The notes below the pieces were generated by a model. That model saw nothing but the letters and a program-made list of their open reading frames with translations, made no database searches and was not told the DNA's origin. DNA of 64,000 nt from a virus: the IMG/VR virus record IMGVR_UViG_3300045988_112906; one strand, written 5' to 3'. Position numbers and translations under genes: made by a program. Shown piece after piece: positions 15,904-29,056 of this stretch (positions within the stretch are counted from its first letter, which is position 1; each line of letters starts with the position of its first letter).

Positions 15904-15934
15904 ACCGTTATTTTTTTATTCGTTAATCTTCGTG

Positions 15935-15942: not shown

Positions 15943-16035
15943 CTAAAAATATTAATAGGGTGTATCTTTAAAGTGCAACTTTCTTTATAGTTTAGACAAA
16001 AACAAAATAAGGTGAGCACCTGCCCACCTTATTTA

Positions 16036-16768
16036 TTATATAACCTTCAATAACTCTTCAAACTTATCATCATACCATCGTGGCTGCGTCTCACTCTGGT
16101 TCTTTGGAGATACCTGGTTCTCTCCATAAGACTTACCCTTCTCGGTAATCACCTTGAACTTGTGAATCCTTGTGGTTCCCTGTCGGGTCTCCTCTTTCAA
16201 GAAGCCAAGCTTAACCATCTGCTGGTTGAACTTCAATGCCGACATCTTGGATCCAAAGCGTTTCAACAGTTCTGATGCCGAGTGCATCACTCCCTTGCTA
16301 GCAACATAGTCTGGGGATGGCAAGCCAAGAGGTTCTGCTACCTTCTGCATCAATGCAAGCGTTGATGAATCGCTGAGGTTAAGGATTCGCTTGCAGCCTT
16401 CCACCCACATCATACCAGCCTCTACTCTATCCTTGATTACATTCGTGACAGAATAGCATCCTGTGCGGCGGATAGACTTCAAGATTTCCTTCACTCCCTT
16501 CTTGAACTGCTTAGCTTGCGGTTTACGACTCTGCATCAAAACTTCGTAAAGACCATCCTCGGTGAGGAACCAAGTCTCACCCTGACGCCCTAAGTTGAAC
16601 TTAGACCGTTCATCCTCATCAACTCTTGTGATCATGTCGGAAACATTCGAAAGTTCCAACCACTCTGCAACATCGTTTGCCTTAAACAATGGGTTCTCGG
16701 CGTTACCATACACATCAATCTCCTTACCAAGGAAAGTTGACTTGCTAATCAAACTGATTTCGTTCATA
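16036..16768 (-). CDS. Bro-N domain antirepressor-like protein
   Basis: The N-terminus (MNEISLI...FGKEIDVYGNAENPLFKANDVAEWLE...WFLTEDGLYEVLMQSRKPQAKQFKKGVKEILKSIRRTG) follows the Bro-N pattern. ATG 16768 is preferred over the tracked start at 16821. Confidence 0.75.
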
Positions 16769-16919
16769 ATAATATATTTTAAAATTCTACTTCCAATGAA
16801 AGGGCATAAGAAATGCCCCATCCGCTAGTGTGAGAGGTGCAGACAGGGCATTATATTTTATATGATGAAATCCATTGATTCTGTGTCTGTTTGTGCCTCT
16901 CACCTCACGAACTTACGAG

Positions 16920-17101: not shown

Positions 17102-17956
17102 TTGGCGGCTGGATTGACCTTCTCGCCTAACGTGAGCGGACAGAAGAATCCTTACTTAGATGCCGTGGGCTGTATGTCGCAGCTTGTGCCGGTGATGGAC
17201 TATCTCGGCAACTCTTCGGCTGGTAAGGAGCCATTGAACGAGACGATCAAGGCTTTCTCTCCTTCTGCCCTATCTCCTTTCGTGGAATGGGAGTTAAATA
17301 CCGACTGGAAGGGTGCGCCAATTGAAAGACGTGGTGACTGGAATGAAAATTCCCCTGCTTGGCAGAGAGCCTACAAGGGCACGCCTGACGGATATATGGC
17401 TGTGAATAAATGGGTGAATGCCCAGACCAACGATGTAGCCAAGGGCAACGAGGATATGCTGGGCAACAGTTTCCTGGATATGGCAACGAACCCTAGTATG
17501 CTGAATCACTACATCGGTGGTATCGGTGGCGGTGCTGCTACGTTTACAGAGCGACTTATCGGTGTTATCAAGCATGGAAACGATACGGAAACCAAGGATA
17601 TTCCTTTCCTTCGATCGCTGCTTTATACGCCTAACGAGCAGAGCAGTTTGCAGAGAACCAAGAGCAAGTGGTATAACTACAAGGATGAAATGGAGAAGAC
17701 GATGGCGAACGTGGACCGCCTGAAATCGAAGAACGTTCCGCTGGATAAGAGAATCACAAATATCGGTGAGTATTATCAATTCCAGAACTCCAAGGAGGCT
17801 GCCAAGGTTAGGGTGATAGAACTGGCTGAGAAGCAGATGAAGCGATGGAAGAAGATGAGGGATAAGGCGAGCGATACCGAAAGCATCAACTTCGCCAATC
17901 AGAATATTGATAGGATCATGATGGATGCGGTGGATGAGCTGGATAGGCTGGAATAA
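17102..17956 (+). CDS. Orphan, diverged copy of the C-terminal ~285 aa of the giant protein (possibly a remnant)
   Basis: Colinear similarity to residues encoded at ~14020-14948: QLVP, DWxGxP, AWQRAY/RWKRAY, NKWxN, YxGGxGG, QRT(K/R)SKWYNY, AVxELDxL. There is no ATG at the boundary (TTG instead). A terminator follows. Confidence 0.6.
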   Translation: MAAGLTFSPNVSGQKNPYLDAVGCMSQLVPVMDYLGNSSAGKEPLNETIKAFSPSALSPFVEWELNTDWKGAPIERRGDWNENSPAWQRAYKGTPDGYMAVNKWVNAQTNDVAKGNEDMLGNSFLDMATNPSMLNHYIGGIGGGAATFTERLIGVIKHGNDTETKDIPFLRSLLYTPNEQSSLQRTKSKWYNYKDEMEKTMANVDRLKSKNVPLDKRITNIGEYYQFQNSKEAAKVRVIELAEKQMKRWKKMRDKASDTESINFANQNIDRIMMDAVDELDRLE

Positions 17957-18032: not shown

Positions 18033-18419
18033 CTAGAGGGAGCTTTTCTTGCTGGCGGCGGCTTGGCAGAGGGAGCCTAAGAGATAGCAGGGTTCTTCGG
18101 TGTACATATTTATCAGGAACTGCTCGGATATGTGCTGAACTACATGGAGCATTTCGTGGGTAAGGCTATTCGTATACTCCCCTTTTGAGGTGGTCCAGCT
18201 TATTACTACTATCGTTTTTCTAGTGTCTATGTTGGAATAGGTGATGCCTTTGTTGGGTTCACCTTCGAGCACGAGATTACAGGCATCTTCGAGAGGAATG
18301 CCGCTGCATCCCAAATCCCGAAGATGCCTTCTTACCTTCATGGCATCCTTTGAGTGAACATCGTACATTACGTGTACGGTCCAGTCGTATCTATCTATGT
18401 AAATCTCCTGCTCTGTCAT
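18033..18419 (-). CDS. Small HExxH (HEMLH) metallopeptidase-like protein
   Basis: 128-aa ORF containing LTHEMLHVVQH. Confidence 0.6.
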   Translation of the reverse strand: MTEQEIYIDRYDWTVHVMYDVHSKDAMKVRRHLRDLGCSGIPLEDACNLVLEGEPNKGITYSNIDTRKTIVVISWTTSKGEYTNSLTHEMLHVVQHISEQFLINMYTEEPCYLLGSLCQAAASKKSSL

Positions 18420-18422
18420 ATT

Positions 18423-18848
18423 TTACAAAATGTCTTCCCAAGGAATGCCTATGCCATTGAATGACGTATCTGCATAGAAGCGGTTGAAGATGAATCCGTC
18501 CTGCTGGTCCTCATCATCCACGTAGTCTTTGATGAACTGTGCCATCTGTTTTTCCTCTGTGATGGATGATCCGTAGAAATCGGCGAGGCACATGTGTGCG
18601 ATGTAAACAGCATCGTAGCCCACATTATTCTCCAGCACGATATTATTCTTCTTCAGAATGTCCTCAATATCATCCTTACTCATGATGCGGATAGATTTTC
18701 CATTCTTCCGCATCTGCTTGATTGCCCACTCGCACATCTTCTTATTGAAGTGCCAACCATTGTAGCGAAGATAAGCCTTCATTTCCTCTGGCTGATAATC
18801 GTAGGCATTTAATGATTGTCTGTATTTTCTTCCCATAATCTCAATCAA
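18423..18848 (-). CDS. Hypothetical protein
   Basis: 141-aa ORF packed tightly against its neighbours. Confidence 0.65.
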   Translation of the reverse strand: MIEIMGRKYRQSLNAYDYQPEEMKAYLRYNGWHFNKKMCEWAIKQMRKNGKSIRIMSKDDIEDILKKNNIVLENNVGYDAVYIAHMCLADFYGSSITEEKQMAQFIKDYVDDEDQQDGFIFNRFYADTSFNGIGIPWEDIL

Positions 18849-18893
18849 TTTAAGAAAGGGGTATGCCCACTTTTGAGCACACCCCCAAACTAG

Positions 18894-19169
18894 TTAGTAA
18901 TCTTCTCCGTAATCACTTCTGTAATCACGTCCACGGTCTTCACGTTGGCGCATGTCTTCGTACTCCTCATGCTCTCGCATACCACTTCTGCCTCCACGAC
19001 CTCTGTAATCGGGCATGCGGTTGCGCTCGCCGTATCGGTCACGTCTGCCTTCACGCTTCATTTCGCCCAGGCAGTTCATTGCCTTATCCAAGTAGCGCAA
19101 GCCCTTCTCCACGTTCTCATACAAGCCATCAAACTTGTCTTCTGTAATCTCAACCATTATCATAATCAT
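18894..19169 (-). CDS. Low-complexity R/D/E/Y/G-rich protein
   Basis: ORF whose C-terminal half is RRDRYGERNRMPDYRGRGGRSGMREHEEYEDMRQREDRGRDYRSDYGEDY. Confidence 0.5.
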   Translation of the reverse strand: MIMIMVEITEDKFDGLYENVEKGLRYLDKAMNCLGEMKREGRRDRYGERNRMPDYRGRGGRSGMREHEEYEDMRQREDRGRDYRSDYGEDY

Positions 19170-19197
19170 AAGATTTTAAAAGTGAATAGATAGGAGA

Positions 19198-19698
19198 TTA
19201 CTTATTGATGCTCTGTTGGAGCCATCCCATCATTTTGTCAATCTTGCCCTCAATGCCGGAAACCTTGCCTTCCAGCTTGTTGATCTTCTCAGTCTGTTCC
19301 CTATCCTTGGCTATCTGGGGGTTGAGTTGCAGTAGCATTCCCTCACAAGATTTAACGACTCTCTCATGGTAATCTACGCTCTCCAGTATCGCCTTGGATT
19401 GTCTCAGCATTGCATCGACCTCTGCACTCATGGCTTCCTTGCTATCGCTTACCACAAGATTCTTGTCGTTCGCTATCTGTCCGTTAGCAGGTAGCTGCTT
19501 GAAATCCGCCTCTTCGTCACCCAGCTTCACCCTAACGTCCACCACAGTCTCCATAGGTTGAGGGGTGAAGCCATTGTTGAAGGATGGGTATCTCGTCTGA
19601 GGGTTGCTAACCGAAACAACCTGACCGATCCTCAAGCTAGGGTTTTCGCCCTTGTCGAGCACATAGAATAAAGAATTTGTTCGTAGTCCTTGAAACAT
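19198..19698 (-). CDS. Hypothetical protein with a C-terminal coiled coil
   Basis: 166-aa ORF. Heptad-like C-terminus KINKLEGKVSGIEGKIDKMMGWL. Confidence 0.65.
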   Translation of the reverse strand: MFQGLRTNSLFYVLDKGENPSLRIGQVVSVSNPQTRYPSFNNGFTPQPMETVVDVRVKLGDEEADFKQLPANGQIANDKNLVVSDSKEAMSAEVDAMLRQSKAILESVDYHERVVKSCEGMLLQLNPQIAKDREQTEKINKLEGKVSGIEGKIDKMMGWLQQSINK

Positions 19699-19728
19699 AA
19701 TGTAATCTCCTATTATCTATTCTGTTTG

Positions 19729-20073
19729 TTAAACAATACCCGTCATCAGCTGAAGGGTGTTAGTATCTCGCTCGAACCAGAGCTGAACCACTCCAGTTCC
19801 CGGCACATCTGCAACCGTCAATGGTTCGCCATTGAACTTGCTCACAGCTTGTGTCGCTCCGTTTGTCTCGAAAAGGATAGGCAGCGTACCAGTCGTTCCA
19901 GTCGGAATAGCCTGCATCAGGTTCACGAAAATCGTCCCCCTGTAGCTGGCATTCACGAAGGCGTGGTTTTTGAACGAGAAAATAACATTTTCGGTGTTCA
20001 CCGCCACGCCTGTAGAAGCGATAGCCGCCGAACCGTTACGATTCACCCATGTATAAGGTCTTAACCATAACAT
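19729..20073 (-). CDS. Hypothetical small protein, probably beta-rich
   Basis: 114-aa ORF in the same operon. Confidence 0.6.
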   Translation of the reverse strand: MLWLRPYTWVNRNGSAAIASTGVAVNTENVIFSFKNHAFVNASYRGTIFVNLMQAIPTGTTGTLPILFETNGATQAVSKFNGEPLTVADVPGTGVVQLWFERDTNTLQLMTGIV

Positions 20074-20088
20074 AGCAGCCTCCTTTCT

Positions 20089-21093
20089 TTAACCCCAGAA
20101 TCCTGCACCGTTGGCAGCATTCAGTCCGTACAAACCTGCCTGATAAGCCACGCAGTTAGGAACCGCAGTAAATGGGCTGTAAGGAGTGGTTACAGTCTCA
20201 GGCAACTTACACTTGATGCCAGCTACCTCGCTCTGAAGACCGGCAAGTACCGCATTGATAGGTGCTACTGCCTGACCCACAATCTGAGAGGTCATTGCCG
20301 AAGACTTGAAGGTGCTATTCTCCTCACGCAGAGAATCAATCTTGTTCTGCATCTCACGCATCTCTGCCTGCTTCTGACCGTCAACGATGGTCTGAGTGCT
20401 TTCCTTGATAGCGTTGTGCAAATCACAAGTCTGGTCCTTAGTAGCATAAGCAAGAGAAGAAGCTGCTCGCTCCTGACCTACTGCCACGTTGTTGATGGCA
20501 TTCTGCAAGGTTCCAGTCTGCTGACACATCGCCAACTTGATATTGCCGTCCATGGCGGTAATGTTGTTGTTGGTCTTGCAGCAGCATTCTGCCAACTGGG
20601 TAGCGATTGCGTTGTTACCCTGCATGATGGCAGTCAATACCTGATTAGCTGTCATGCCCATCTGGTTGCCGACACCACAAATCTCATTGCTTACACCATT
20701 GATGGCAGCGATAACGTTACCGGTAGTGGTGTTGAGAGCTGTAGCGAGAGACTGAACATCGTAGCCATTGCGCTGAACTGCCTGCATGATAACAGCCGTA
20801 TTGGCATCGTTGTTAATCATAGGAGCAACACCGCCCTGTCCGTTAGGCATGAAGCCACCACCGTTGGCACCGCCGAAGAAGTTGCCTCTACCCATGATAA
20901 TGAAGAGAAGCAGGATGGCAAACAAATCATTGCCCCATCCGCCACCATTGCCCTTGCCGTTACAGAGAGCAATCAAACTTGGATCTACACCCTGCTTCTG
21001 CATGAGTGCTGGGAGCATAGCGAGAATGCTATTCAAACCGCCGCCTTGGCTGGTTCCGTTCTCCCCGAATACGTAAGTTTTCGATTCTGACAT
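20089..21093 (-). CDS. Gly-rich protein with one TM segment and a long Asn/Ala/Gln-rich helical region
   Basis: GGGWGNDLFAILLLFIIMGRGNFFGGANGGGF. ATG 21093 is preferred, because the tracked start at 21123 is GTG. Confidence 0.65.
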   Translation of the reverse strand: MSESKTYVFGENGTSQGGGLNSILAMLPALMQKQGVDPSLIALCNGKGNGGGWGNDLFAILLLFIIMGRGNFFGGANGGGFMPNGQGGVAPMINNDANTAVIMQAVQRNGYDVQSLATALNTTTGNVIAAINGVSNEICGVGNQMGMTANQVLTAIMQGNNAIATQLAECCCKTNNNITAMDGNIKLAMCQQTGTLQNAINNVAVGQERAASSLAYATKDQTCDLHNAIKESTQTIVDGQKQAEMREMQNKIDSLREENSTFKSSAMTSQIVGQAVAPINAVLAGLQSEVAGIKCKLPETVTTPYSPFTAVPNCVAYQAGLYGLNAANGAGFWG

Positions 21094-21137
21094 AATAAAT
21101 GATAGATTAATCGTTTCGTTCACTATTGAACTTGGTG

Positions 21138-21145
21138 CAAAGTTA
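21138..21145 (-). promoter_or_regulatory. -7 box (TAACTTTG) for the leftward 21093-18033 operon
   Basis: The reverse complement of caaagtta fits TAnnTTTG. Confidence 0.4.
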
Positions 21146-21312
21146 CGAAGATGTTAGCGTCCTGCCTAACTATGCTCAAAATAAAGTTTTTGCTAGTTAG
21201 AATGCTGTTTTTCAATGATTTACGATGAGCAAGTTGATGCTCATTAATTTAGCATTTTTCTAAACTAGGAAGAAAACGAGCTTCTGTCGGTACAACCTAT
21301 CGTATTTTTTCG

Positions 21313-21320
21313 TACTTTTG
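21313..21320 (+). promoter_or_regulatory. -7 box (TACTTTTG) for the Zorya-like operon
   Basis: TAnnTTTG match 22 nt upstream of ATG 21342. Confidence 0.5.
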
Positions 21321-21341
21321 CAGGAAAAATCGCTTAAAATT

Positions 21342-22850
21342 ATGACTGAACAAGGAACGAATATCGCAACATTGATTTGCTGCATCATTATCGGTGGCGC
21401 ATTCTTAGTCTTCTTTTATATCACCAAGACAGCGAAAGAAGACTTTCTATTGAAACACAAGAGAACGGTTGATGCTTTCCCTTCAATCATTTCTACTCTT
21501 GGAGTTTTGGGAACATTCTTAGGAATCACAATAGGATTATCAGGTTTTGATGTGAACGACTTAACACGTAGTATTCCTATTCTTCTTGGTGGATTGAAGA
21601 CAGCATTCTACACTTCGCTTGGCGGTATGTTAGGTTCCCTTATTCTACGTCATTTCTGTACAGATATTAAGTTTGACAAAGAAGATGGAGGTGTCTCTTC
21701 TACTGATGCAGCAATCAGAGAGTTGGGAAAAGGTGTGCGAGAAATGAGTTCTACCCTAGTTACTACCTTAATCCAAAACAGAAACGAAATGAAGCAGATG
21801 GGTATGGCGCAGGCATCATTCTTTAATCAGATTTTAGAGATAAACAAATCGCTTGTTGGCTCTGCAACTAATATTGATACCAAGCTAGCTCGTATCTCTT
21901 TGGTTGAAGGAGAACAGACTGCCACACTTAACACGCTGGCTTCTCATGCTTCTAATTTTGAAGCCAGCAATAAGCGCCTTGAGGAATCCTTGGGAGAAAT
22001 TGTTGATGCACAATCGGCAAACACTTCTACATTTGACGAAATGAACGAGGAACTTAAGAAGTTCAGCCAGATTTTACGTTCAGAGGTAGATGAAATCGAA
22101 GATAAGATGGAAAGTACCAATAAACTTCTTACCAACAAGTTTGACGAGTTCAGCGAACTGCTTAAGAAGAGCAATACAGAAGCTTTGGTTAATGTCATGA
22201 AGAAGGTAACAGAAGAGTTCCAGAAGCAGATGAACGACCTTATCAGCAGATTGGTACAAGAGAACTTTGCTAAGCTGAATGAAAGTGTTGAGAAGCTGAA
22301 CACATGGCAGGAAGAAAATAAGACTATGATAGAAAGCTTGACTAAGCAGTATCACCAGATGGAGCAGGACTTTGAAGGTACATCTACTGTGATGCTTGAC
22401 GTTTCCAACTATGCAAACCAACTTGTTGGAAACGGTGGAAAGTTGGCTCAGTTGGTATCAGTTCTTAAAGAAGTAATGGTTGACGATCAGAAATTTATAG
22501 AAATTTCTAGAAACCTTTCCGAGTCTGCTTCGCTTGCTAAAGACGGAATGGAGAAACAGGATGCTATTACAAATAAGCTCAATGAATGGGTTCAAGGTGT
22601 TCAAGTTTTCAAGGATGATGTTCAGCGCCTTATCAATAAGCTCGAAGAGTTGGATAGAATAAGAAACTACAACGAACAGTTCTGGCAAGGCACAAAGAAG
22701 AGCTTGGAAGAAGGTGTCGGTATTATTCAGAGCGGAAGCGAAGAGCTGAATAAGCAAATTCTGAATATAGATAAGAGTTTCTACAATAGATTAAGTGCAA
22801 CATTGGCTAGTCTTGATAACTTGATTGCAACGATGTTAGATAGACACTAA
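21342..22850 (+). CDS. zorA: ZorA-like protein: MotA/ExbB/TolQ-like 3-TM channel domain plus a ~350-aa coiled-coil tail
   Basis: Three TM helices containing LGTFLGITIGL and LKTAFYTSLGGMLGSLIL, then a long heptad-rich region. Followed by a MotB-like gene. Confidence 0.7.
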   Translation: MTEQGTNIATLICCIIIGGAFLVFFYITKTAKEDFLLKHKRTVDAFPSIISTLGVLGTFLGITIGLSGFDVNDLTRSIPILLGGLKTAFYTSLGGMLGSLILRHFCTDIKFDKEDGGVSSTDAAIRELGKGVREMSSTLVTTLIQNRNEMKQMGMAQASFFNQILEINKSLVGSATNIDTKLARISLVEGEQTATLNTLASHASNFEASNKRLEESLGEIVDAQSANTSTFDEMNEELKKFSQILRSEVDEIEDKMESTNKLLTNKFDEFSELLKKSNTEALVNVMKKVTEEFQKQMNDLISRLVQENFAKLNESVEKLNTWQEENKTMIESLTKQYHQMEQDFEGTSTVMLDVSNYANQLVGNGGKLAQLVSVLKEVMVDDQKFIEISRNLSESASLAKDGMEKQDAITNKLNEWVQGVQVFKDDVQRLINKLEELDRIRNYNEQFWQGTKKSLEEGVGIIQSGSEELNKQILNIDKSFYNRLSATLASLDNLIATMLDRH

Positions 22851-22861
22851 ACAGAATCATT

Positions 22862-23560
22862 ATGGCAAAAAATAATATATGGATGTCTGTTTCTGACCTT
22901 ATGACAGGATTGATGGTGATATTTTTGTTTGTTGCCATTGCCTATATCAGTAAGGTTCAGGAACATTCGGTAACGCTGAAAGATTACGTGGAGGTGAAAG
23001 AAAATCTTCACGACAAACTGGTAAGCAAGTTTGAAGGAGATACTGCTAAATGGCAAATGACCATTGGTAGCGATTTGTCAATGAAGTTCAAGAATGCTTC
23101 TGTACTTTTTCAGCAGGGTTCAGATCAGCTTTCTCCTGAGTTCAAAAAGGTTCTTGCGGACTTCTTGCCAAGGTATTTTGATATACTTTTGAATGACAGT
23201 TTACGAAACCATATAACAGAAATTCGCATCGAGGGGCATACGGACGACTGGGGTTATCCACAGCTTGATAAAGACCCTTATATTGCAAATGTTATCCTCT
23301 CGCAGAAACGTGCACTGAATGTCCTTCGCTTCTTCCGTTCTCTGCCAGAGTTTCAGAAATACACTCCAAAAGAGAAGGCGTTGCTGGAATATTGGTTTAC
23401 GGCAAATGGTCTTTCATACGGCAAGGCTTTGGATTCAAAAGGTGAATACATTCATGACAGCCATAACAAAATCGACTTAGCTAAGTCTAGACGAGTAGAG
23501 TTCAGAATTATTACTGATAGCGAAAAGCTTCTGGAGAATTTTGTTGGCAAAAACAAATAA
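22862..23560 (+). CDS. zorB: ZorB-like protein: MotB-type TM helix plus an OmpA-like peptidoglycan-binding domain
   Basis: SVSDLMTGLMVIFLFVAI carries a TM-embedded Asp. EGHTDD...NVILSQKRALNV...RRVEFRI fits the OmpA-like motif. Confidence 0.75.
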   Translation: MAKNNIWMSVSDLMTGLMVIFLFVAIAYISKVQEHSVTLKDYVEVKENLHDKLVSKFEGDTAKWQMTIGSDLSMKFKNASVLFQQGSDQLSPEFKKVLADFLPRYFDILLNDSLRNHITEIRIEGHTDDWGYPQLDKDPYIANVILSQKRALNVLRFFRSLPEFQKYTPKEKALLEYWFTANGLSYGKALDSKGEYIHDSHNKIDLAKSRRVEFRIITDSEKLLENFVGKNK

Positions 23561-23573
23561 TTAAATAATTATT

Positions 23574-24416
23574 ATGGAAGAGGAACCATTGATTAATTTT
23601 AGTGCACTTAGAGATAAACTAATAGCATTGGGATTTCATATAAAGGAGCCAAAAGGAAAAGGCGGCTATAGCGAGGTTGAATCACAAGATGTTACTCTTG
23701 GAGATATACAAAATGGAACATTAAAGATTGATAAAACCGGTATCTTTAATATTGATCCTGACACAGGAGAAGAACAACGTATTTTTCTGTATAAAAGAAA
23801 ATACAATCTCAAAAGGTTTGGAAAGCCAAGATACCATATTTGCAAATGTCAAACCATAGAAGATTTTATGAATGCTGCTGGTGCCATCCCAGAATACAGG
23901 AAAGCAAATAAAATGCCCGTGTGGGTTATTGATACTAGTGACAATAACAAAGATAAACAGATAGATAATCTACCTCTTTGTAAAAATTGTGCAGCCATTT
24001 TAGGCAACATTAATAAAAACACTACTTCAAATGAATTTGTTGAAATTTTAAAAAAGGCATATAAAGCTCCTAGTAAACCGGGAGAAAAGATAGAAGTCGA
24101 TGTTAATGGCTATACTAGAGATTGGAGGGAGATCAGTAAAAAGTATCGAGAGAAGCATAACTACACATGTGAAAGATGTGGTGTAAAAGTTATGAATCCG
24201 TTCGAAAGTGAGTTTATGCAGACTCATCATCGAAATGGCAACAAGACTGACAATCGTGAAAACAACCTGGAGTGTCTTTGCATTAAGTGCCATTCCGAAG
24301 TTGATGATACCCATAGAAGAAATTTCAACACTCTAGCCCAGCAAGGTATCATCCAAGAGTTTCTGCTGAAATATGGTACGGAACGCTTTAAAGGAAAAAG
24401 TGGGGAGTTGTTTTAA
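23574..24416 (+). CDS. zorE: ZorE-like HNH endonuclease
   Basis: CERCG...THHRNGNKTDNRENNLECLCIKCH is an HNH motif with a Zn-binding CxxC pair. It is the third gene of the operon. Confidence 0.7.
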   Translation: MEEEPLINFSALRDKLIALGFHIKEPKGKGGYSEVESQDVTLGDIQNGTLKIDKTGIFNIDPDTGEEQRIFLYKRKYNLKRFGKPRYHICKCQTIEDFMNAAGAIPEYRKANKMPVWVIDTSDNNKDKQIDNLPLCKNCAAILGNINKNTTSNEFVEILKKAYKAPSKPGEKIEVDVNGYTRDWREISKKYREKHNYTCERCGVKVMNPFESEFMQTHHRNGNKTDNRENNLECLCIKCHSEVDDTHRRNFNTLAQQGIIQEFLLKYGTERFKGKSGELF

Positions 24417-24433
24417 CGCCCCCACTCTTTTAT
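24400..24433. terminator. Hairpin between convergent genes
   Basis: A GTGGGG...CCCCAC stem overlapping the zorE stop codon, followed by TCTTTTA. Confidence 0.45.
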
Positions 24434-24468
24434 TATAAAGTCAGCGACTTAGAGTTCTTTTTTCTCAA

Positions 24469-25455
24469 TTACTTATATTTATTCATTTCAATATTATTGA
24501 CAATGATATTAGTCAATCCTTTTTTGTAAAGTGTGCGGATGGCAGCTTGAGCATCAGTAGATGGAATGTAACCATTAGGGCATCTCACAACAATCTTCTT
24601 AACTTTATTGTCATGTTGAGAACTTAAAGAATCTGCATCCAGTGTACAAGTAGATTGGTCAATAAACATATTATCCACATCAGAATGTGAAGCAAATCCT
24701 AACTGGTCTAATGTGGTATCTATAGCAAGAAGATACGCATTGGTTCTTTTCCCCTTTGTCCAAGTTAGTTTTGGATAAGGAACTGTTACATAACGAACAG
24801 AGGATGGGACATCTGCTAGGTCACCTGATATTCCACTATTGCGAATAGTAAATGCCCAGTCTTTATTCTCTGTCAAATTTAACTTTGCTACATCTGCTAT
24901 TTTTCCAGTAATATTCTTGCAAGATGCAATCTGCATAGTTGTGGTAGAACTTGGAAGGTTGCTGATGTCAAGATATAAGTCTGGACATGAACCTATAATC
25001 AAATCTGTTACCTGCGAATGTTTTACCAAATCGTTAATATCTCCTTTGAAGTTAGACGAAATTCTTAATTTCTTTAGCCCTGTAAGCCATGTCAATTTTG
25101 ACAAATCCATCTTGTCTTTATCTGAGAAAAGGCAAGAACCGTCATTTTTAATATTTAAAACAGTCACTGATTCCTTTGGAATTATGCTTAGCGTAAATTT
25201 CTTATCAGACAGAATATTCTTAGTTTTTTCAGTCTTTACATCCAAGGTTGTACTTCCATCAATGAAAGTTACTCCATCTGTACTAATTATTTTTATAGTC
25301 GCATTGCTGTTTGTGTCAACAATCCCCCATTCACTACCACAAACTCTAAACTGCTCATCGCTTTTTCCATAGCAATGGAGCTTTATTTCATTGAACTTTA
25401 AAAGTTTGTCGTTGCCAACTAAATGTGTCAACGTTTTTTTAAGACATTTATTCAT
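24469..25455 (-). CDS. Leucine-rich-repeat-like protein in the tail-fibre module
   Basis: Repeated segments such as LxxLxL/IxxC...ITG (e.g. LKKLRISSNFKGDINDL, DLIIGSCPDLYLDISNL). Lies immediately downstream of the tail-fibre gene. Confidence 0.55.
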   Translation of the reverse strand: MNKCLKKTLTHLVGNDKLLKFNEIKLHCYGKSDEQFRVCGSEWGIVDTNSNATIKIISTDGVTFIDGSTTLDVKTEKTKNILSDKKFTLSIIPKESVTVLNIKNDGSCLFSDKDKMDLSKLTWLTGLKKLRISSNFKGDINDLVKHSQVTDLIIGSCPDLYLDISNLPSSTTTMQIASCKNITGKIADVAKLNLTENKDWAFTIRNSGISGDLADVPSSVRYVTVPYPKLTWTKGKRTNAYLLAIDTTLDQLGFASHSDVDNMFIDQSTCTLDADSLSSQHDNKVKKIVVRCPNGYIPSTDAQAAIRTLYKKGLTNIIVNNIEMNKYK

Positions 25456-25457
25456 AA

Positions 25458-27650
25458 TTATTTGATTTTTATTAATTCAAAATTTCTATGTTTACCTTCT
25501 GTTGACCATTGATTTCCAAGTCGATTGAGAATCAAGGAGTCTTTTCTAAATGTCACAACTGTTAGAGCATCAAATGCTAACGAGTTAACATCATCCACAT
25601 TAGGAATGTCTGCTGCATGTCTTTGTTGCTTGTTGTTTGATGCACACACAGGATTGATGGAATATTGTTTGCCATACGAGTTGTGCTTAAAGACCAAATC
25701 ACGATGGCTATGCCCACCTATATATGCAATGAAATTTGCTTTCACATTTGTAAAGTCATAGTCTAATGAGTAAGCGTATTTGTCCGAATCTCCATTGACA
25801 TTAAGATAGGAAGCATCCGCAGTATGCCATCCAGAATGGCACATCTTTACCTTAATATTTCCTGTTGTCTTATTGTTAAAACCATTAATCAGCTCAGAAA
25901 ACAAGTCTGTTTCCATTGCATACATGCCATCGTCTTTAGCATTTAAATCCGAGCTTACGGCAAACTTATAATCCTTCACATTTGAGCTGTTTATCATCGC
26001 AGGATTGTGAGTTGCAACAACAATCCCATAACCTTCCGGAGTAGAGTTTAAGGTATCAATAAACCATCTAGCTTGTTCCGCCATGATAACCCTTGTTGCT
26101 CTTCCGCATTTATAATATGGAAGTGTATGAAGCGTATAATCAGGGTTCTGAGTATTATCAATAGTCACGACATTTTTTTTGCAGACAAAAGAATGATCTT
26201 TATATCCACCGCAGTTAATCTTATCGCCAACTGAATATGATGCTCCAGGTTTTACCATAGCAGCAGTAGAATCGTATTCTACTACATTCCAATAATCATT
26301 GTCTGCAACATCTAGAGGATTATCATACTCATACGGAACTATAAGCCTGATTTTTCTTTCTTTGAAGTCGTGATAATAATAATTTTTTCCATAAGTATAT
26401 TCACCTTCTTTAAGGATGCCCGATTCTATCATTGGTAGTATGAAATCCATAAAGATTTCATCATGAGTTGCAGCTGTATTTAAATATAAGGTGTTACCAA
26501 CATCATGATTTCCGACAACAATAAACCACGGTTTTACACAAGATGACATAACCTTAATTGTAGATTGTACTTCACTACGGTCATAGATATAATTACAAAT
26601 ATCTCCACAATGAATAATCGCATCTATGGAAGCGAAATTACTTGTTAGCTTAACTGCATTTTCTACTGGTGTAGTTTCTCCATGTGAATCTGTCACTATA
26701 CATAATTGTAAATCTTTCCCCTGTGCTTCCAAAGTGTTATATCTGCAAGCACTAAACAAGGCATCAGTATTTTGTTTGTTTCGTAAAACGACATTGCTTC
26801 CCGTGATTATTTCTTTTTGCAACTTTTCAATTTTCTCACTGAGATACGATGATAGTTTATCTATCGTCTCAGACTTCATATTGTGAGCATAGTGACTTCC
26901 GTCTTCATACGTGCCGGCAAGAACCTTGCCATCTGCATCCGTCTCCACCTCTATAAACTCGGGGTTGTCAATTACCGAATGGGCTGCTGCAACTTCGGAA
27001 TCAATCAGGGATTTGCCTTCCTCCTTGTCAACCTTAGTATCGTTCAGTTCATCAATCGTCTCAGACTTCATATTGTGAGCATAGTGACTTCCGTCCGCAT
27101 ACGTACAAGCAAGCACATTATCGTCCGCATCGGTCTCAATATTCATGAACTCTGGGGTGTTGACATAAGAAAATGGATTTTTAATAATATTATTTTCCGT
27201 GTCTCTAATTTCTGTATTGTCTGCCAAGTTGCTGAGTTTATCACTCACCGCCTTCTGACTCATTACCTTATCTTCTGCTTCACCAGACTCCTGCAAGATT
27301 GATGTCTTGTCAATTTTAGCCCCTTGCAGTTCATCGACTGCACCTTGGATATTTGCCGAGGTAAGTTGGGAAGTGGTGTTGTCGTAAGTAACAGCACTTG
27401 CAACACTGGCACCACCAGTGGCGGCGATATTCTTCAAAGTCTCTGTAATCTGATCATCACGAGTGTTGAGCTTTTTCATATTATCATCCAGCGAGGCGTT
27501 CTTTGCGTCTTGGGCAGATTTGTTGGCGGTAATCTGCTGCTGCTTGTCATTAATCTGACCCTGCAAGGCGTCTGATACGGACTTTGTGTAGGATTTGATT
27601 TTACCCCAAAAGTGCATGAGACCAGAATCGTTTAAATATTTCTTTTCCAT
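25458..27650 (-). CDS. Tail-fibre-like protein with a C-terminal calcineurin-like metallophosphoesterase domain
   Basis: Metallophosphoesterase motifs VTDSHG, HCGDI, VGNHD, VATHNP and GGHSH. The N-terminus KYLNDSGLMHFWGKIKSY is shared with the 27661 gene. Confidence 0.75.
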   Translation of the reverse strand: MEKKYLNDSGLMHFWGKIKSYTKSVSDALQGQINDKQQQITANKSAQDAKNASLDDNMKKLNTRDDQITETLKNIAATGGASVASAVTYDNTTSQLTSANIQGAVDELQGAKIDKTSILQESGEAEDKVMSQKAVSDKLSNLADNTEIRDTENNIIKNPFSYVNTPEFMNIETDADDNVLACTYADGSHYAHNMKSETIDELNDTKVDKEEGKSLIDSEVAAAHSVIDNPEFIEVETDADGKVLAGTYEDGSHYAHNMKSETIDKLSSYLSEKIEKLQKEIITGSNVVLRNKQNTDALFSACRYNTLEAQGKDLQLCIVTDSHGETTPVENAVKLTSNFASIDAIIHCGDICNYIYDRSEVQSTIKVMSSCVKPWFIVVGNHDVGNTLYLNTAATHDEIFMDFILPMIESGILKEGEYTYGKNYYYHDFKERKIRLIVPYEYDNPLDVADNDYWNVVEYDSTAAMVKPGASYSVGDKINCGGYKDHSFVCKKNVVTIDNTQNPDYTLHTLPYYKCGRATRVIMAEQARWFIDTLNSTPEGYGIVVATHNPAMINSSNVKDYKFAVSSDLNAKDDGMYAMETDLFSELINGFNNKTTGNIKVKMCHSGWHTADASYLNVNGDSDKYAYSLDYDFTNVKANFIAYIGGHSHRDLVFKHNSYGKQYSINPVCASNNKQQRHAADIPNVDDVNSLAFDALTVVTFRKDSLILNRLGNQWSTEGKHRNFELIKIK
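26863..27165 (-). repeat. Tandem ~192-nt (64-aa) duplication inside the tail-fibre gene
   Basis: atcgtctcagacttcatattgtgagcatagtgacttccgtc occurs at ~26863 and ~27055. The protein repeat reads NPEF(M/I)..ETDAD..VLA.TY.DGSHYAHNMKSETID. Confidence 0.8.
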
Positions 27651-27660
27651 ATTATGTTTA

Positions 27661-28185
27661 TTATGTTAAACCATTAATATATTCGTCTGAAATTGCAGTG
27701 AAGTCTAGGTTTGCCAGCTTCTGTTTTTCAGCCGTAGTATAATCGTTTTCCGAAAGCCCTTTACCTTCCACCTTATCTACCTTTTTCGAGAGAGCAGCAT
27801 TTACTGTTTCAGTCTTAGCGTATGACGTAAGATCAACGTCCGACTTATATTCTCCGATTTTCTCCCATTTGGTTTCATCATAAGTTTTGCTTGTATCGCC
27901 AGTATAGAGATACTCGGCATAGATATTTTTGGATGAAGTGGAAGAAGCTTTAATGAGGTAGATTCTGTTTGAAAGGATATTGCTTGTAGGCAAATACTCA
28001 ACAACCTTGAACAACGACATATCAAGATTGCCAAGCTGTGTCAGCGGTATTTTTCCATTCGCATCGAGTGAAGCTAATCCGTTGGCTTTTCCTTTTTCTG
28101 AACTTGGTATAAAGTTTTTTTCGTTGATATACGATTTTACTTTGTTCCAAAGTGTAGATAGTCCGAGTTTATCAAGATATTCCAT
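27661..28185 (-). CDS. Tail-fibre-like small protein
   Basis: MEYLDKLGLSTLWNKVKSYI parallels the N-terminus of the 730-aa fibre. ATG 28185 is preceded by GCGT. Confidence 0.65.
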   Translation of the reverse strand: MEYLDKLGLSTLWNKVKSYINEKNFIPSSEKGKANGLASLDANGKIPLTQLGNLDMSLFKVVEYLPTSNILSNRIYLIKASSTSSKNIYAEYLYTGDTSKTYDETKWEKIGEYKSDVDLTSYAKTETVNAALSKKVDKVEGKGLSENDYTTAEKQKLANLDFTAISDEYINGLT

Positions 28186-28192
28186 ACGCAAA

Positions 28193-29056
28193 CTATATTA
28201 ATACTTCTTTTACCTCATTTGGTTTCATATTAGACTGCTTGATGTTGTCAATCTCGTCTTCTACATTTCTGACTCTTGACTCTAAGGAAGCAGACGGCTG
28301 AACTGGCACAGGAACATACGTTCCGTCAATAACCTTATCTATATCTGCATCAGAAATAGAAACAAACTCATTTACCTGATTTTGAATATTCTGAATAGAT
28401 TTATCAATGTTCTGAATCTTCTCTACAAGATCTTCCGGCAAGCCAATAGCTGCAAGGAGAAGCTTCCTTAATTCCTCGGCGAGCTTGTCTAGTGTAACGG
28501 AACATTCTGCAAGCTTATCTCTTGTAACACCTTCTGTAGCTATCTTGTCCGTTGTTACCGCATCGTTTGCGATGATGTCAGACGTTACGCTGCTGTCTCG
28601 AAGTACTCTTGTATCAACAGAAGAATCTCCCAACTTTCCATTGGTTACATTCTTATCGGCAATCTTCTCAGCGGTAACACTGCCATCCTTGATTTTCCGT
28701 GTTATGACAGCATCATCTTGAAGCTTATCATAGCTTACGGATGAAAAATCTAACTTTCCGTTAGTTACAGACCGATCATCAAGCTTTTCTTCTGTTACAG
28801 ATCCATTATCAAGCTTAGATGTAGAAACAGCACCTTCAGCTAACTTCTCGGTCGTGATATTCTCATCCGCTATCTTCGAAGCCTTGATTGCTCCGTCAGG
28901 TAGCTTATCCGTAGAAACTGCACCATCAGCGAGCTTCTCGGTCGTAACATTGCCGTCACGAATCTTTTCTTTCGTGATGGCTTGGTCGTTGATGTCGTCT
29001 GTTTTCATCATCGGCACCATGCAACCTAATTTTGGATCATCTCTAAATGTAGGCAT
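28193..29056 (-). CDS. Tail-fibre protein built from about 15 copies of an 11-aa repeat
   Basis: A period-11 repeat (...GxVTxxKLxD...) spans most of the ORF. Confidence 0.7.
   Translation of the reverse strand: MPTFRDDPKLGCMVPMMKTDDINDQAITKEKIRDGNVTTEKLADGAVSTDKLPDGAIKASKIADENITTEKLAEGAVSTSKLDNGSVTEEKLDDRSVTNGKLDFSSVSYDKLQDDAVITRKIKDGSVTAEKIADKNVTNGKLGDSSVDTRVLRDSSVTSDIIANDAVTTDKIATEGVTRDKLAECSVTLDKLAEELRKLLLAAIGLPEDLVEKIQNIDKSIQNIQNQVNEFVSISDADIDKVIDGTYVPVPVQPSASLESRVRNVEDEIDNIKQSNMKPNEVKEVLI

What the first reader, a model, noticed from the sequence alone, without database searches (positions are those of the whole stretch)
21313..24433. Phage-borne type II Zorya-like operon (ZorA-ZorB-ZorE) inserted among virion genes
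This is a rightward three-gene unit with its own TACTTTTG box and a terminal hairpin, flanked on both sides by leftward genes. Gene 1 encodes a MotA/ExbB/TolQ-like 3-TM domain (LGTFLGITIGL; LKTAFYTSLGGMLGSLIL) followed by ~350 aa of coiled coil. Gene 2 encodes a MotB-like TM helix with a conserved Asp (SVSDLMTGLMVIF) and an OmpA-like peptidoglycan-binding motif (NVILSQKRALNV, RRVEFRI). Gene 3 encodes a C-terminal HNH nuclease (HHRNGNKTDNRENNLECLCIKCH) with CxxC pairs. This is the gene content defined for type II Zorya (Doron et al. 2018). Two things are unusual. The operon lies inside a phage structural region, which suggests inter-phage competition. The ZorA tail is also short: 502 aa in total, against roughly 700 aa for E. 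coli type I ZorA as I recall it. That matters if tail length sets the sensing distance.
Basis: partly seen in the sequence, partly recalled or inferred. Interest (0 to 1): 0.7.

Follow-up and report, generated by a model that had tools for sequence, protein, structure and literature searches.

The report
Gut phage carrying type II Zorya
An uncultured ~76-kb phage of gut Bacteroidales carries a complete, well-preserved three-gene type II Zorya anti-phage system as swappable cargo next to its tail-fibre genes, most likely to keep rival phages out of the cell it occupies; this is a new member of a known kind of system, not a new kind.

Summary
Three tightly spaced rightward genes (21342-22850, 22862-23560, 23574-24416) match PADLOC ZorA2, ZorB2 and ZorE2 over their full length (E = 3.5e-172, 2e-76, 2e-82). 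ZorB aligns end to end with the solved type II ZorB (8VVI), and its Asp12 falls on the critical Asp21. The HNH and Cys motifs are conserved in about 50 relatives.

The context is clearly a phage: SU10-like capsid and adaptor, P22-like portal, terminase, tail fibres. The window matches a 76,317-bp gut metagenome contig at 100% in every protein compared. The same proteins sit in NCBI nr as 'chromosome segregation ATPase', 'OmpA family' and 'NinG', so they are not recognised there as Zorya.

Zorya is accessory cargo. Homology to Zorya-less relatives runs through the conserved TACTTTTG promoter and stops at the ZorA ATG. Other relatives carry small lipoprotein or membrane genes there, or an independently acquired Zorya II with a 368-aa ZorA. 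The genes are under strong purifying selection (ZorB dN/dS 0.002-0.014).

The 'short tail' claim fails. 502 aa is typical for this Bacteroidales clade (about 480-556 aa) and longer than the solved 378-aa type II ZorA.

Extra finding: ZorA tail segments and the ZorE N-domain exist as deeply diverged, recombining alleles around an invariant ZorB.

Verdict: a new member of a known kind, of moderate interest.

The parts
21313..21320 (+). Bacteroidota-type -7 promoter box TACTTTTG (consensus TAnnTTTG), 21 nt upstream of the zorA ATG. It belongs to a conserved backbone intergenic region (21124-21341) that also holds a divergent box, TAACTTTG, at 21138-21145 (-) for the leftward operon.
   Evidence: Sequence. 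Conserved at the same position in all 9 Zorya-bearing relatives. Homology with Zorya-less relatives extends through it to about 21328-21345. The motif alone is not enriched in the window. Promoter function is inferred from the published Bacteroides consensus (my own knowledge).
21342..22850 (+). zorA (type II), 502 aa. It has a hydrophobic N-terminal helix (8-26), a MotA/ExbB-like TM2-TM3 core (about 46-106) and a proline-free, all-helical tail (about 112-502). The tail has a variable membrane-proximal insert (about 130-262) and a highly conserved core (about 248-340).
   Evidence: PADLOC ZorA2 PDLC00635, E = 3.5e-172, positions 7-499 of 505. PDB 8VVI_F type II ZorA, E = 4.4e-14. Hydropathy and proline count. 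Conservation map. dN/dS 0.05-0.14. The low-confidence AF2 model is all helix.
22862..23560 (+). zorB (type II), 232 aa. It has a single TM helix carrying the invariant Asp12, and an OmpA-like peptidoglycan-binding domain (IEGHTD, NxxLSQxR, SRRVExR).
   Evidence: PADLOC ZorB2 PDLC00641, E = 2e-76. PDB 8VVI_A, E = 1.8e-40 over residues 3-230, with D12 aligned to D21. Pfam OmpA 28.5 bits, above the cut-off. 36.6% identity to RefSeq-annotated E. coli zorB2. dN/dS 0.002-0.014.
23574..24416 (+). zorE, 280 aa. The N-terminal domain (about 1-190; DUF8245 in the precomputed annotation) has a conserved H88/C92/C136/C139 cluster and is highly variable between phage strains. The C-terminal HNH nuclease has C199/C202, H218-H219, N227/N231, C236/C239-H240 and H247.
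   Evidence: PADLOC ZorE2 PDLC00644, E = 2e-82, positions 3-264 of 267. PHROG HNH endonuclease families. Conserved residues. DUF8245 (weak) on the identical protein in L004. Allele pattern.
24394..24436 (+). Intrinsic-terminator-like hairpin that spans the zorE stop codon, followed by a T-rich run. A short conserved element at 24426-24460 marks the right border of the cargo slot.
   Evidence: Fold -15.2 kcal/mol, z = -2.6. Conserved with compensatory changes in 8 of 9 relatives. The 24426-24460 element is found next to other cargo in L081, L084, L118 and L151.
24469..29056 (-). Right flank: the variable tail-fibre / receptor-binding module. It comprises a 328-aa LRR-like protein, a 730-aa protein with a metallophosphoesterase domain, and 176-aa and 287-aa tail-fibre proteins. 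It is followed by the SU10-like adaptor (29329-29985) and the major capsid protein (30519-32240).
   Evidence: PHROG tail-fibre families. Pfam Metallophos. SU10_adaptor and SU10_MCP on the identical proteins of L004.
18033..21123 (-). Left flank: a conserved six-gene leftward block (o344, o114, o166, o91, o141/DUF7841, o128) of unknown function. It is transcribed divergently from zorA and occurs in either orientation among related phages.
   Evidence: PHROG families of unknown function. Synteny and orientation survey.

Best explanation
This is a genuine, intact type II Zorya anti-phage system (zorA-zorB-zorE). It is carried as accessory 'moron' cargo in a dedicated slot of a ~76-kb uncultured podovirus-like phage of gut Bacteroidales.

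**The slot (shown).** It lies between the tail-fibre genes and a conserved leftward operon. It supplies a conserved Bacteroidota-type promoter on one side and a terminator/border element on the other.

**Mechanism (inferred from the experimentally studied homologues).**
1. Five ZorA and two ZorB subunits form an inner-membrane, ion-driven motor.
2. The ZorB OmpA-like domain anchors the motor to peptidoglycan.
3. The ZorB TM aspartate (D12 here) and the ZorA Ser/Thr ring form the ion path.
4. The bundled ZorA C-termini form a long cytoplasmic tail.
5. When an incoming phage perturbs the envelope, the motor is activated.
6. ZorAB then recruits the soluble HNH nickase ZorE to the entry site, where it nicks the invading DNA and, collaterally, host DNA. 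This stops the superinfecting phage.

**Benefit to the carrier phage (inferred).** Its own entry precedes expression, so the system acts only on later arrivals. It protects the cell the phage occupies, whether as lysogen, pseudolysogen, carrier state or during a long infection, from competing phages.

**Shown here:** family membership, gene order, conserved functional residues, phage context, cargo-slot structure, presence/absence polymorphism, independent second acquisition, and strong purifying selection.

**Inferred:** 5:2 stoichiometry, nickase activity, the trigger, timing of expression, host genus and phage lifestyle.
For: **Membership**
- PADLOC gives full-length ZorA2, ZorB2 and ZorE2 hits.
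- ZorB matches 8VVI at E = 1.8e-40 with D12 on D21, and ZorA matches 8VVI at E = 4.4e-14.
- ZorB is 36.6% identical over 94% of its length to RefSeq-annotated zorB2 of E. coli plasmids.
- The collinear A-B-E triad is present in 72 of the 73 related loci; the exception is a 2.8-kb contig that ends just after zorA.
- Invariant residues across 42-51 unique homologues include ZorB D12 and the PG-binding motifs, the ZorA TM2/TM3 polar residues, and the ZorE HNH core with its Cys pairs.

**Phage context**
- Portal, terminase, capsid, adaptor and tail-fibre genes are present.
- Independent contigs recur at 76.3-76.8 kb, and one contig of 153,592 bp is about twice that size.
- The proteins are in an NCBI TPA 'Caudoviricetes sp.' record.

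**Cargo slot**
- Homology to Zorya-less relatives ends at 21328-21345 and resumes at 24426-24460.
- Alternative cargo occupies the slot in relatives.
- Only 3 of 40 close relatives sampled carry any Zorya.
- L090 and L091 carry a different Zorya II (ZorA 33% identical) at the same site, and it branches separately in the ZorB tree.
- G+C is low across the cassette.

**The genes are maintained**
- ZorB differs by 48-85 synonymous against 1-9 non-synonymous changes, giving dN/dS 0.002-0.014. ZorA gives 0.05-0.14 and the ZorE HNH part 0.06-0.11.

**Mechanism in the literature**
- PMC11890865: type II ZorA5B2, ZorE nickase, recruitment to the membrane on infection.
- PMC11946911: the type I motor and the requirement for the tail.
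- PMC13192584: ZorE has a DUF8245 plus HNHc architecture.

**Host clade**
- All 28 cellular relatives of this ZorA are Bacteroidales.
- The capsid protein's only hits in the phage collection are Bacteroides phages, at about 24% identity.
Against: - There is no experimental evidence for this clade. NCBIfam equivalog models for ZorA2, ZorB2 and ZorE score far below their curated cut-offs (91 vs 700, 114 vs 400, 74 vs 600 bits), so it is a distant branch from the E. coli-type systems that were tested.
- The phage's lifestyle is unknown. No integrase or repressor was found among the ORFs tested in 64 of 76.3 kb; only an Ant/Bro anti-repressor, RecT, an SbcC-like protein and NinG were seen.
- If the phage is strictly lytic with a short cycle, the benefit of a membrane sensor system is less obvious.
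- ZorE nicks host and resident DNA in E. coli. How the resident phage genome would be spared is unexplained.
- The cassette is rare in the family: about 7 of at least 598 IMG/VR relatives.
Confidence: 0.8

Rival explanations
1. The phage uses ZorABE offensively or for its own cycle rather than as defence. For example, the ZorE nickase could degrade or relax host DNA during takeover, or the system could act purely as short-term superinfection exclusion during a strictly lytic infection, possibly against its own kin.
For: No integrase or repressor was seen in the visible 84% of the genome. ZorE damages host DNA when overexpressed or activated (PMC11890865). The cassette sits next to tail-fibre genes, so receptor specificity and exclusion could travel together.
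Against: The system is absent from most close relatives, so it is not needed for the phage cycle. In E. coli, ZorE alone is inactive at native levels and needs infection-triggered ZorAB. The whole sensor module, including peptidoglycan anchoring, is under extreme purifying selection, which fits sensing of incoming phages. Superinfection exclusion is in any case a form of the defence explanation.
Confidence: 0.1
2. The three genes are a generic MotAB/ExbBD/TolQR-type proton-channel pair plus an unrelated homing HNH endonuclease. On this reading they are not a Zorya system, and the resemblance is domain-level only.
For: Pfam sees only a sub-threshold MotA_ExbB hit (14.3 vs 22.9 bits), OmpA, and sub-threshold HNH. 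NCBI annotates the proteins generically. HNH homing endonucleases are common in phages.
Against: The best PADLOC hits are Zorya-specific and full length, including the ZorA tail and the ZorE N-terminal domain. The ZorA tail aligns with the solved type II ZorA tail. The triad is strictly collinear in 72 of 73 loci from diverse Bacteroidales and viral contigs. No flagellar, Ton or Tol partner genes are nearby.
Confidence: 0.03
3. The cassette is a decaying or neutral passenger, or the contig is a misassembled or chromosomal island rather than a phage.
For: Low G+C relative to the backbone. Rarity among relatives. Some IMG/VR loci with related Zorya (the L042 group) look like integrase-rich islands rather than phages.
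Against: The ORFs are intact in all but one of 13 lineage loci; L007 has a split zorE. dN/dS is very low at dS 0.45-1.2. The same synteny appears in at least 8 independent assemblies from different samples. Genome-sized contigs of about 76 kb recur, with a full virion and packaging gene set.
Confidence: 0.02

Closest known systems
Type II Zorya of Sulfuricurvum kujiense (ZorA5B2 cryo-EM, PDB 8VVI) and E. coli (functional work), Mariano et al. 2025, PMC11890865
   Same: Same three-gene content and order. ZorB aligns over its full length (E = 1.8e-40) with the critical TM Asp conserved. The ZorA TM2-TM3 core and the tail core (window residues about 245-433 against chain residues 147-329) align. 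ZorE has an HNH domain with flanking Cys pairs. The expected mechanism is therefore the same: a peptidoglycan-anchored ion-driven motor that recruits a nickase.
   Different: Sequence is distant: ZorB is 36.6% identical to E. coli ZorB2, and the NCBIfam equivalog cut-offs are not reached. ZorA is 502 aa against 378 aa in S. kujiense. The extra length is a variable, membrane-proximal tail insert (about residues 130-262) that is also missing from the 368-aa ZorA of L090. The carrier is a phage of Bacteroidales, not a proteobacterial chromosome or plasmid.
Type I Zorya of E. coli (ZorABCD), Hu et al. 2025, PMC11946911
   Same: A homologous ZorA5B2-type motor with a long helical tail that is needed for signalling. 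PADLOC ZorA1 and ZorB1 profiles are hit secondarily.
   Different: There is no ZorC or ZorD; the effector is ZorE. Type I ZorA is 729 aa in E. coli (deletion constructs run to residue 729).
Prophage- and phage-encoded defence 'morons' and cargo hotspots. Examples from my own knowledge: the P2/P4 hotspots and BstA in lambdoid prophages. From papers read here: Owen et al. 2021, cited in PMC11946911, and the survey of defence systems in gut phage genomes, bioRxiv 10.1101/2024.10.26.620412.
   Same: A defence system sits in a variable slot with its own promoter and terminator, shows presence/absence polymorphism among close relatives, has a deviating G+C, and alternates with other small cargo genes.
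   Different: The cargo here is a 3.1-kb, three-gene membrane-motor system rather than the usual single-gene Abi or RM type. The carrier is an uncultured Bacteroidales podovirus-like phage with no visible integrase. The slot has captured Zorya II at least twice.
Chromosomal, plasmid and MAG Zorya II of Bacteroidales (Prevotella, Alistipes, Bacteroides, Phocaeicola, Muribaculum; loci L046-L073 and Prevotella sp. E2-28 pE2-28)
   Same: Same PADLOC sub-family (PDLC00635/00641/00644), same gene order, and similar sizes (ZorA mostly 480-556 aa).
   Different: Identity to the window is at most 54% for ZorA and about 60-67% for ZorB. The phage-lineage copies form their own tight clade in the ZorB tree.

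Membership tests
Type II Zorya (ZorA-ZorB-ZorE) | ZorA: a MotA/ExbB/TolQ-like transmembrane core followed by a long helical cytoplasmic tail | tested here: met
   PADLOC ZorA2 PDLC00635, E = 3.5e-172, covering 7-499 of 505. 8VVI_F, E = 4.4e-14, in both core and tail. Hydrophobic helices at 8-26 and 46-71, and a proline-free 391-aa tail. Predicted all-helical, at low confidence.
Type II Zorya (ZorA-ZorB-ZorE) | ZorB: a MotB-like single TM helix with the conserved ion-path aspartate, plus an OmpA-like peptidoglycan-binding domain | tested here: met
   PADLOC ZorB2, E = 2e-76. 8VVI_A, E = 1.8e-40, with D12 aligned to D21, the critical Asp named in PMC11890865. Pfam OmpA above its cut-off. D12 and the NxxLSQxR / SRRVExR motifs are conserved in at least 95% of 42 homologues.
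Type II Zorya (ZorA-ZorB-ZorE) | ZorE: a soluble protein with an HNH nuclease domain (N-terminal DUF8245 plus HNHc) | tested here: met
   PADLOC ZorE2, E = 2e-82, covering 3-264 of 267. PHROG HNH families. H218, H219, N227, N231, H240 and H247 and the Cys pairs 199/202 and 236/239 are conserved. DUF8245 is recorded (weak) for the identical protein. There is no TM segment.
Type II Zorya (ZorA-ZorB-ZorE) | The three genes are contiguous, on one strand, in the order zorA-zorB-zorE | tested here: met
   Gaps of 11 and 13 nt in the window. The same order holds in 72 of 73 related loci.
Type II Zorya (ZorA-ZorB-ZorE) | ZorA5B2 stoichiometry and ion-driven motor activity | not testable with these tools
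   No multimer prediction was available. This is inferred from homology to 8VVI only.
Type II Zorya (ZorA-ZorB-ZorE) | Confers resistance to phage infection; ZorE nicks DNA and is recruited by ZorAB on infection | not testable with these tools
   Known for the E. coli system (PMC11890865). Needs experiment here.
NCBIfam equivalogs ZorA2 / ZorB2 / ZorE (E. coli-type type II Zorya) | Score at or above the curated equivalog cut-off | tested here: not met
   91.1 vs 700, 113.6 vs 400 and 73.7 vs 600 bits. These are annotation thresholds for a narrow clade, not a definition of the system. The failure explains why PGAP and the TPA records name these proteins generically.
Flagellar stator MotAB / Ton ExbBD / Tol-Pal TolQR | A MotA_ExbB family match above threshold, with partner genes nearby (flagellar, TonB or TolA/Pal) | tested here: not met
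   Pfam MotA_ExbB scores 14.3 bits against a cut-off of 22.9. No such partner genes were found among the neighbouring ORFs scanned. NCBIfam MotB-type hits are far weaker than the ZorB hits.
Phage moron / accessory cargo slot | Presence/absence among close relatives, with conserved flanks, its own promoter and terminator, and atypical composition | tested here: met
   Borders lie at about 21342 and about 24426. Alternative cargo is listed. 3 of 40 close relatives carry a Zorya. Promoter and terminator are conserved. G+C is 0.36-0.39 against 0.47-0.51.
Diversity-generating retroelement target (considered for the variable ZorA and ZorE segments) | A template repeat near the variable repeat, adenine-specific substitutions, and a reverse transcriptase | tested here: not met
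   No second copy of any variable segment exists in the window. Substitutions in the ZorA cassettes are spread over all four bases. No YxDD motif occurs in long ORFs.

The most novel reading that the evidence does not exclude
The deeply diverged alleles could be specificity or evasion determinants kept by balancing or diversifying selection in the phage population. They lie in two ZorA tail segments (aa about 142-221 and 342-381) and in the ZorE N-terminal domain. They assort independently and surround an invariant ZorB.

On this reading, Zorya II has swappable modules that either set which invaders are sensed or hit, or escape phage-encoded anti-Zorya proteins.

The natural 368-aa and 502-aa ZorA variants found at the same phage slot would then be a ready-made test of what the membrane-proximal part of the tail does.
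Probability: 0.2. Interest if true: 0.7.

Novelty: new member of a known kind. Interest (0 to 1): 0.42.

Why it matters
- **A handle on Bacteroidales defence.** Defence systems of Bacteroidales and their phages are poorly characterised. Here a complete Zorya II is carried by a phage lineage that is common in human gut metagenomes: one variant in the same 90%-identity ZorB cluster was seen on at least 1000 contigs.
- **An annotation gap.** The Bacteroidales clade of Zorya II is invisible to NCBI's naming models. The same proteins are deposited as 'chromosome segregation ATPase', 'OmpA family protein' and 'NinG'.
- **Testable natural variants.** The cargo slot, the two independent captures of Zorya II, the ZorA length variants and the recombining ZorA/ZorE alleles around an invariant ZorB give concrete hypotheses about which parts of Zorya carry specificity.
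- **No change to mechanism.** None of this alters the known mechanism of Zorya.

Tried and rejected
- **'Short tail is unusual': rejected.** The matching PADLOC profile has 505 positions. The clade range is about 480-556 aa. The solved type II ZorA is 378 aa.
- **DGR-driven hypervariability: rejected**.
- **Live invertible segment in this genome.** The o344-o128 block is inverted among relatives, and L117 has the promoter segment on both sides of it. The window has no second copy and no long inverted repeats. I treat this as an evolutionary rearrangement here.
- **Other cargo at the slot as known defence genes: not found.** Six representative proteins gave no PADLOC or Pfam hits. One P63C-HTH protein hit only HTH-type PADLOC models.
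- **Closest cultured phage: none found.** The 10-kb nucleotide search found only a 78%-identical 1-kb piece of an unannotated fragment. The capsid protein hits three Bacteroides phages at 23-25% identity.
- **tRNAs: none in the window**.
- **Single-sequence AF2 model of ZorA: too poor for fold search.** Mean pLDDT was 51.9, so I used only its secondary structure.
- **Phage family name: not resolved.** Benler et al. 2021 has no mention of Zorya, MotA or OmpA, and a literature search for the polyvalent-protein phages was unproductive.
- **Lysogeny genes: none found.** The ORFs scanned with profile libraries showed none, nor did the called genes of the first 12 kb of the source contig. I could not fetch the 11.6 kb of the genome upstream of the truncated giant ORF.

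Full report
**1.

The region contains three rightward ORFs separated by 11 and 13 nt:
- 21342-22850: 502 aa from the ATG. The mechanical ORF starts at a TTG at 21318, which lies inside the promoter box.
- 22862-23560: 232 aa.
- 23574-24416: 280 aa.

They lie between leftward genes at 20089-21123 and 24469-25455.

TACTTTTG sits at 21313-21320, 21 nt before the ATG. The motif TANNTTTG is not enriched in the window as a whole (59 found, 47.6 +/- 6.7 expected), so one box alone proves little. This box, however, keeps its place in all nine Zorya-bearing relatives while the sequence just upstream diverges.

A hairpin spanning the zorE stop codon (core 24399-24426, -15.2 kcal/mol, z = -2.6) is followed by a T-run. 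It is preserved with compensatory changes in 8 of 9 relatives. G+C falls to 0.36-0.39 over the cassette, against 0.47-0.51 on the left and 0.45-0.50 in the capsid genes.

**2. It is a type II Zorya**

| Protein | Best PADLOC hit | Solved-structure match |
|---|---|---|
| ZorA | ZorA2 PDLC00635, E = 3.5e-172, positions 7-499 of 505 | 8VVI_F (378 aa), E = 4.4e-14, in the TM2-TM3 core and the tail |
| ZorB | ZorB2 PDLC00641, E = 2e-76 | 8VVI_A, residues 3-230, E = 1.8e-40 |
| ZorE | ZorE2 PDLC00644, E = 2e-82 | none at E <= 0.01 |

- ZorB Asp12 aligns with Asp21 of the S. kujiense type II ZorB, the residue Mariano et al. name as critical (PMC11890865).
- ZorB is also 36.6% identical over 94% of its length to genes that RefSeq annotates as zorB2 on E. 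coli plasmids.
- Among the 73 related loci fetched up to that point, 72 have the collinear A-B-E triad. The exception is a 2.8-kb contig that ends just after zorA.
- Residues conserved in at least 95% of 42-51 unique homologues:
  - ZorB: D12 and the OmpA-type motifs IEGHTD, NxxLSQxR and SRRVExR.
  - ZorA: the TM2/TM3 Gly/Thr/Ser positions.
  - ZorE: H218-H219, N227, N231, H240 and H247, the Cys pairs 199/202 and 236/239, and an H88/C92/C136/C139 cluster in the N-terminal domain.
- The NCBIfam equivalog models are hit but far below their cut-offs. This is therefore a distant clade from the E. coli-type systems. That also explains the generic public annotation (section 3).

**3. The carrier is a phage, and the sequence is already public**

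The neighbourhood encodes the following:
- Tail-fibre proteins (27661-29056)
- An SU10-like adaptor (29329-29985) and capsid protein (30519-32240)
- A P22-like portal (33212-35236)
- A large terminase (37559-39673)
- An Ant/Bro anti-repressor (16036-16821)
- RecT, an SbcC-like ATPase and NinG
- Giant 'polyvalent' ORFs with ddrB-ParB, helicase and LPD domains

Every window protein compared is 100% identical to its counterpart on ENA ERZ1748977 NODE_37, a contig of 76,317 bp. The window is the reverse of roughly positions 682-64,681 of that contig.

The exact ZorB sequence occurs on at least 23 contigs. Many are about 76 kb and one is 153,592 bp, roughly twice that, which points to a complete genome of about 76.5 kb.

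The same proteins are in NCBI nr as a third-party-annotated 'Caudoviricetes sp.' MAG: DAU30913 'chromosome segregation ATPase', DAU30912 'OmpA family protein' and DAU30924 'NinG recombination protein'. PGAP likewise calls the homologous triad on Prevotella sp. E2-28 pE2-28 hypothetical / OmpA family / hypothetical.

No cultured phage is close. The capsid protein hits only three Bacteroides phages, at 23-25% identity. All 28 cellular relatives of this ZorA are Bacteroidales, at no more than 54% identity. Together with the Bacteroidota-type promoter box, this points to a Bacteroidales host. That is an inference.

**4. Zorya is accessory cargo in a defined slot**

- At least 598 IMG/VR stretches encode relatives of the left-flank gene.
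- Among the best 80 loci, 40 belong to the close family, and only three of those carry any Zorya.
- Nucleotide homology between the window and Zorya-less relatives runs through the whole intergenic region, promoter box included. It stops at 21328-21345, which is the zorA ATG.
- A short element at 24426-24460 reappears beyond the cargo in several relatives.
- In place of Zorya, relatives carry small predicted lipoproteins and membrane proteins, an IS110-type transposase, or a P63C-HTH protein. None matched a PADLOC defence model beyond HTH domains.
- L090 and L091 carry a different Zorya II at the same slot: ZorA 368 aa and 33% identical, ZorB 59%, ZorE 29%. In a ZorB neighbour-joining tree it branches apart from the window's lineage, among MAG-derived copies. 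The slot has therefore captured Zorya II at least twice.
- Related Zorya II operons (45-50% ZorA identity) also occur in two other IMG/VR contexts. One group has a lambdoid-type replication module (L018 group). The other is an integrase-rich element (L042 group).

**5. The genes are maintained by selection, with a mosaic pattern**

Against seven lineage members:

| Gene or part | dN/dS | Note |
|---|---|---|
| ZorB | 0.002-0.014 | 48-85 synonymous vs 1-9 non-synonymous differences, at dS 0.45-1.2 (six pairs; dS is saturated for L012) |
| ZorA, whole | 0.05-0.14 | |
| ZorE, HNH part | 0.06-0.11 | |

ZorB protein is 96-100% identical across the lineage. ZorA and ZorE vary much more, and in discrete blocks:
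- **ZorA residues about 142-221:** alleles are 32-48%, 75-85% or 95-100% identical to the window.
- **ZorA residues about 342-381:** alleles are either 57-65% or 95-100% identical.
- These two blocks assort independently. L003 differs only in the first and L005 only in the second.
- **ZorE N-terminal about 190 residues:** at least four alleles, while the HNH part stays 70-98% identical.

A DGR origin is excluded. The variable ZorA blocks coincide with the parts least conserved across the whole clade, whereas residues about 248-340 form a near-invariant tail core.

The 368-aa ZorA of L090 lacks window residues about 130-262. The S. kujiense ZorA aligns its residues 147-329 to window residues 245-433. 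The length differences within type II therefore come mainly from a variable, membrane-proximal tail insert.

**6. The tail-length claim**

- 502 aa matches the PADLOC sub-family profile length and the clade's usual range. It exceeds the solved type II ZorA.
- The tail (112-502) has no proline.
- A low-confidence single-sequence model (mean pLDDT 51.9) predicts it as helices 119-150, 157-275, 279-363, 368-379 and 382-501. No length in nm should be read from that model.

**7. Most likely mechanism**

By homology to the studied systems, ZorA5B2 forms a peptidoglycan-anchored, ion-driven motor with a cytoplasmic tail. Envelope perturbation by an incoming phage activates it. ZorAB then recruits the ZorE nickase, which nicks invading and host DNA (PMC11890865; PMC11946911; PMC13192584).

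For the carrier phage, its own entry precedes expression. The system would therefore act on later arrivals and protect the occupied cell.
- **Shown here:** membership, conserved residues, context, slot structure and selection.
- **Inferred:** stoichiometry, activity, trigger, timing, host and lifestyle.

No integrase or repressor was found among the ORFs tested in the 64 kb visible. The 11.6 kb upstream of the truncated giant ORF could not be read.

**8. Novelty and score**

Phage- and prophage-borne defence systems are well known. A survey of gut phage genomes already lists Zorya among the systems detected (bioRxiv 10.1101/2024.10.26.620412).

This is a new member of a known kind. Its features of moderate interest are:
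- a three-gene motor system carried in a podovirus-like Bacteroidales phage;
- a slot that captured Zorya II twice;
- natural ZorA length variants;
- recombining ZorA and ZorE alleles around an invariant ZorB;
- a clade that standard annotation misses.

Interest 0.42.

Noticed in passing
window 21765-22004 and 22365-22484 (ZorA aa 142-221 and 342-381); 23574-24143 (ZorE aa 1-190); compared with L001, L003, L005, L009-L013: Within one phage lineage, ZorB is 96-100% identical. Two ZorA tail segments and the ZorE N-terminal domain exist as deeply diverged alleles (down to 32-48% and 34-52% identity) that assort independently. A DGR is excluded. The ZorA segments coincide with the least conserved parts of the tail across the clade.
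   Followed up: yes
L090 42-2628 and L091 5179-7765 (same slot as window 21342-24416): A second, independently acquired type II Zorya sits at the same cargo slot. Its ZorA is 368 aa and lacks the equivalent of window ZorA residues about 130-262. This is a natural tail-length variant.
   Followed up: partly
window 18033-21123 compared with L075, L117, L118, L143 (one orientation) and L084, L093, L149 (the other): The six-gene block o344-o128 occurs in both orientations relative to the tail-fibre/capsid module among close relatives. In L117 a ~90-bp copy of the promoter segment flanks it on both sides in inverted orientation. The window itself has no such repeat, so this looks like recombination between repeated promoter segments rather than a live switch here.
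   Followed up: partly
window 6-7928, 8040-14948 and 17102-17956: Giant 'polyvalent protein' ORFs carry ddrB-ParB, ResIII/AAA_34 helicase, LPD3 and LPD38 domains. In relatives this is one ORF of 5,557-5,850 aa (L001-L003, L005, L007). Here it is split into pieces of at least 2640, 2302 and 284 aa, with three leftward genes (two small ORFs and Ant/Bro, 15020-16821) lying between the last two pieces.
   Followed up: partly
window 25458-27650 (-): A 730-aa protein in the tail-fibre module has a coiled N-terminal part and a calcineurin-like metallophosphoesterase domain (residues about 315-414). This is an unusual enzymatic domain for a fibre-module protein.
   Followed up: no
window 24469-25455 (-) and cargo ORFs such as L092 4914-6116, L123 11796-12875, L124 11444-12361: A family of proteins shares a conserved N-terminus (M-x-K-C-L-[IV]-T-K-L-x-G) followed by very different, often leucine-rich-repeat-like C-terminal parts. 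They are swapped next to the cargo slot. They are probably interchangeable receptor-binding proteins.
   Followed up: no
NCBI nr DAU30913.1, DAU30912.1, DAU30924.1; Prevotella sp. E2-28 pE2-28 (L156 6289-9525): Public records name the Bacteroidales-clade Zorya II proteins 'chromosome segregation ATPase' or hypothetical, 'OmpA family protein', and 'NinG recombination protein' or hypothetical. NCBIfam Zorya equivalog cut-offs are far from reached, so the clade goes systematically unannotated.
   Followed up: yes
L014-L028, L040-L041, L044-L045 (e.g. L018 9983-13118) and L030-L037, L042-L043 (e.g. L042 9986-13193): Related Zorya II operons (ZorA 45-50% identical) occur on IMG/VR contigs in two other contexts. 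One is next to DNA methyltransferases and a lambdoid-type replication module (O-like/DnaD, helicase, NinG). The other is in an element with four tyrosine-integrase genes and a Dda/RecD-like helicase, which may not be a phage.
   Followed up: partly
window 15001-16000 and 46001-51000: Further low-G+C stretches (0.34-0.41, against about 0.45-0.50 elsewhere) coincide with small leftward ORFs. They may be additional cargo regions.
   Followed up: no
L087 6237-7202: An IS110-family transposase (DEDD_Tnp_IS110 plus Transposase_20) is inserted at the same cargo slot in one relative.
   Followed up: no
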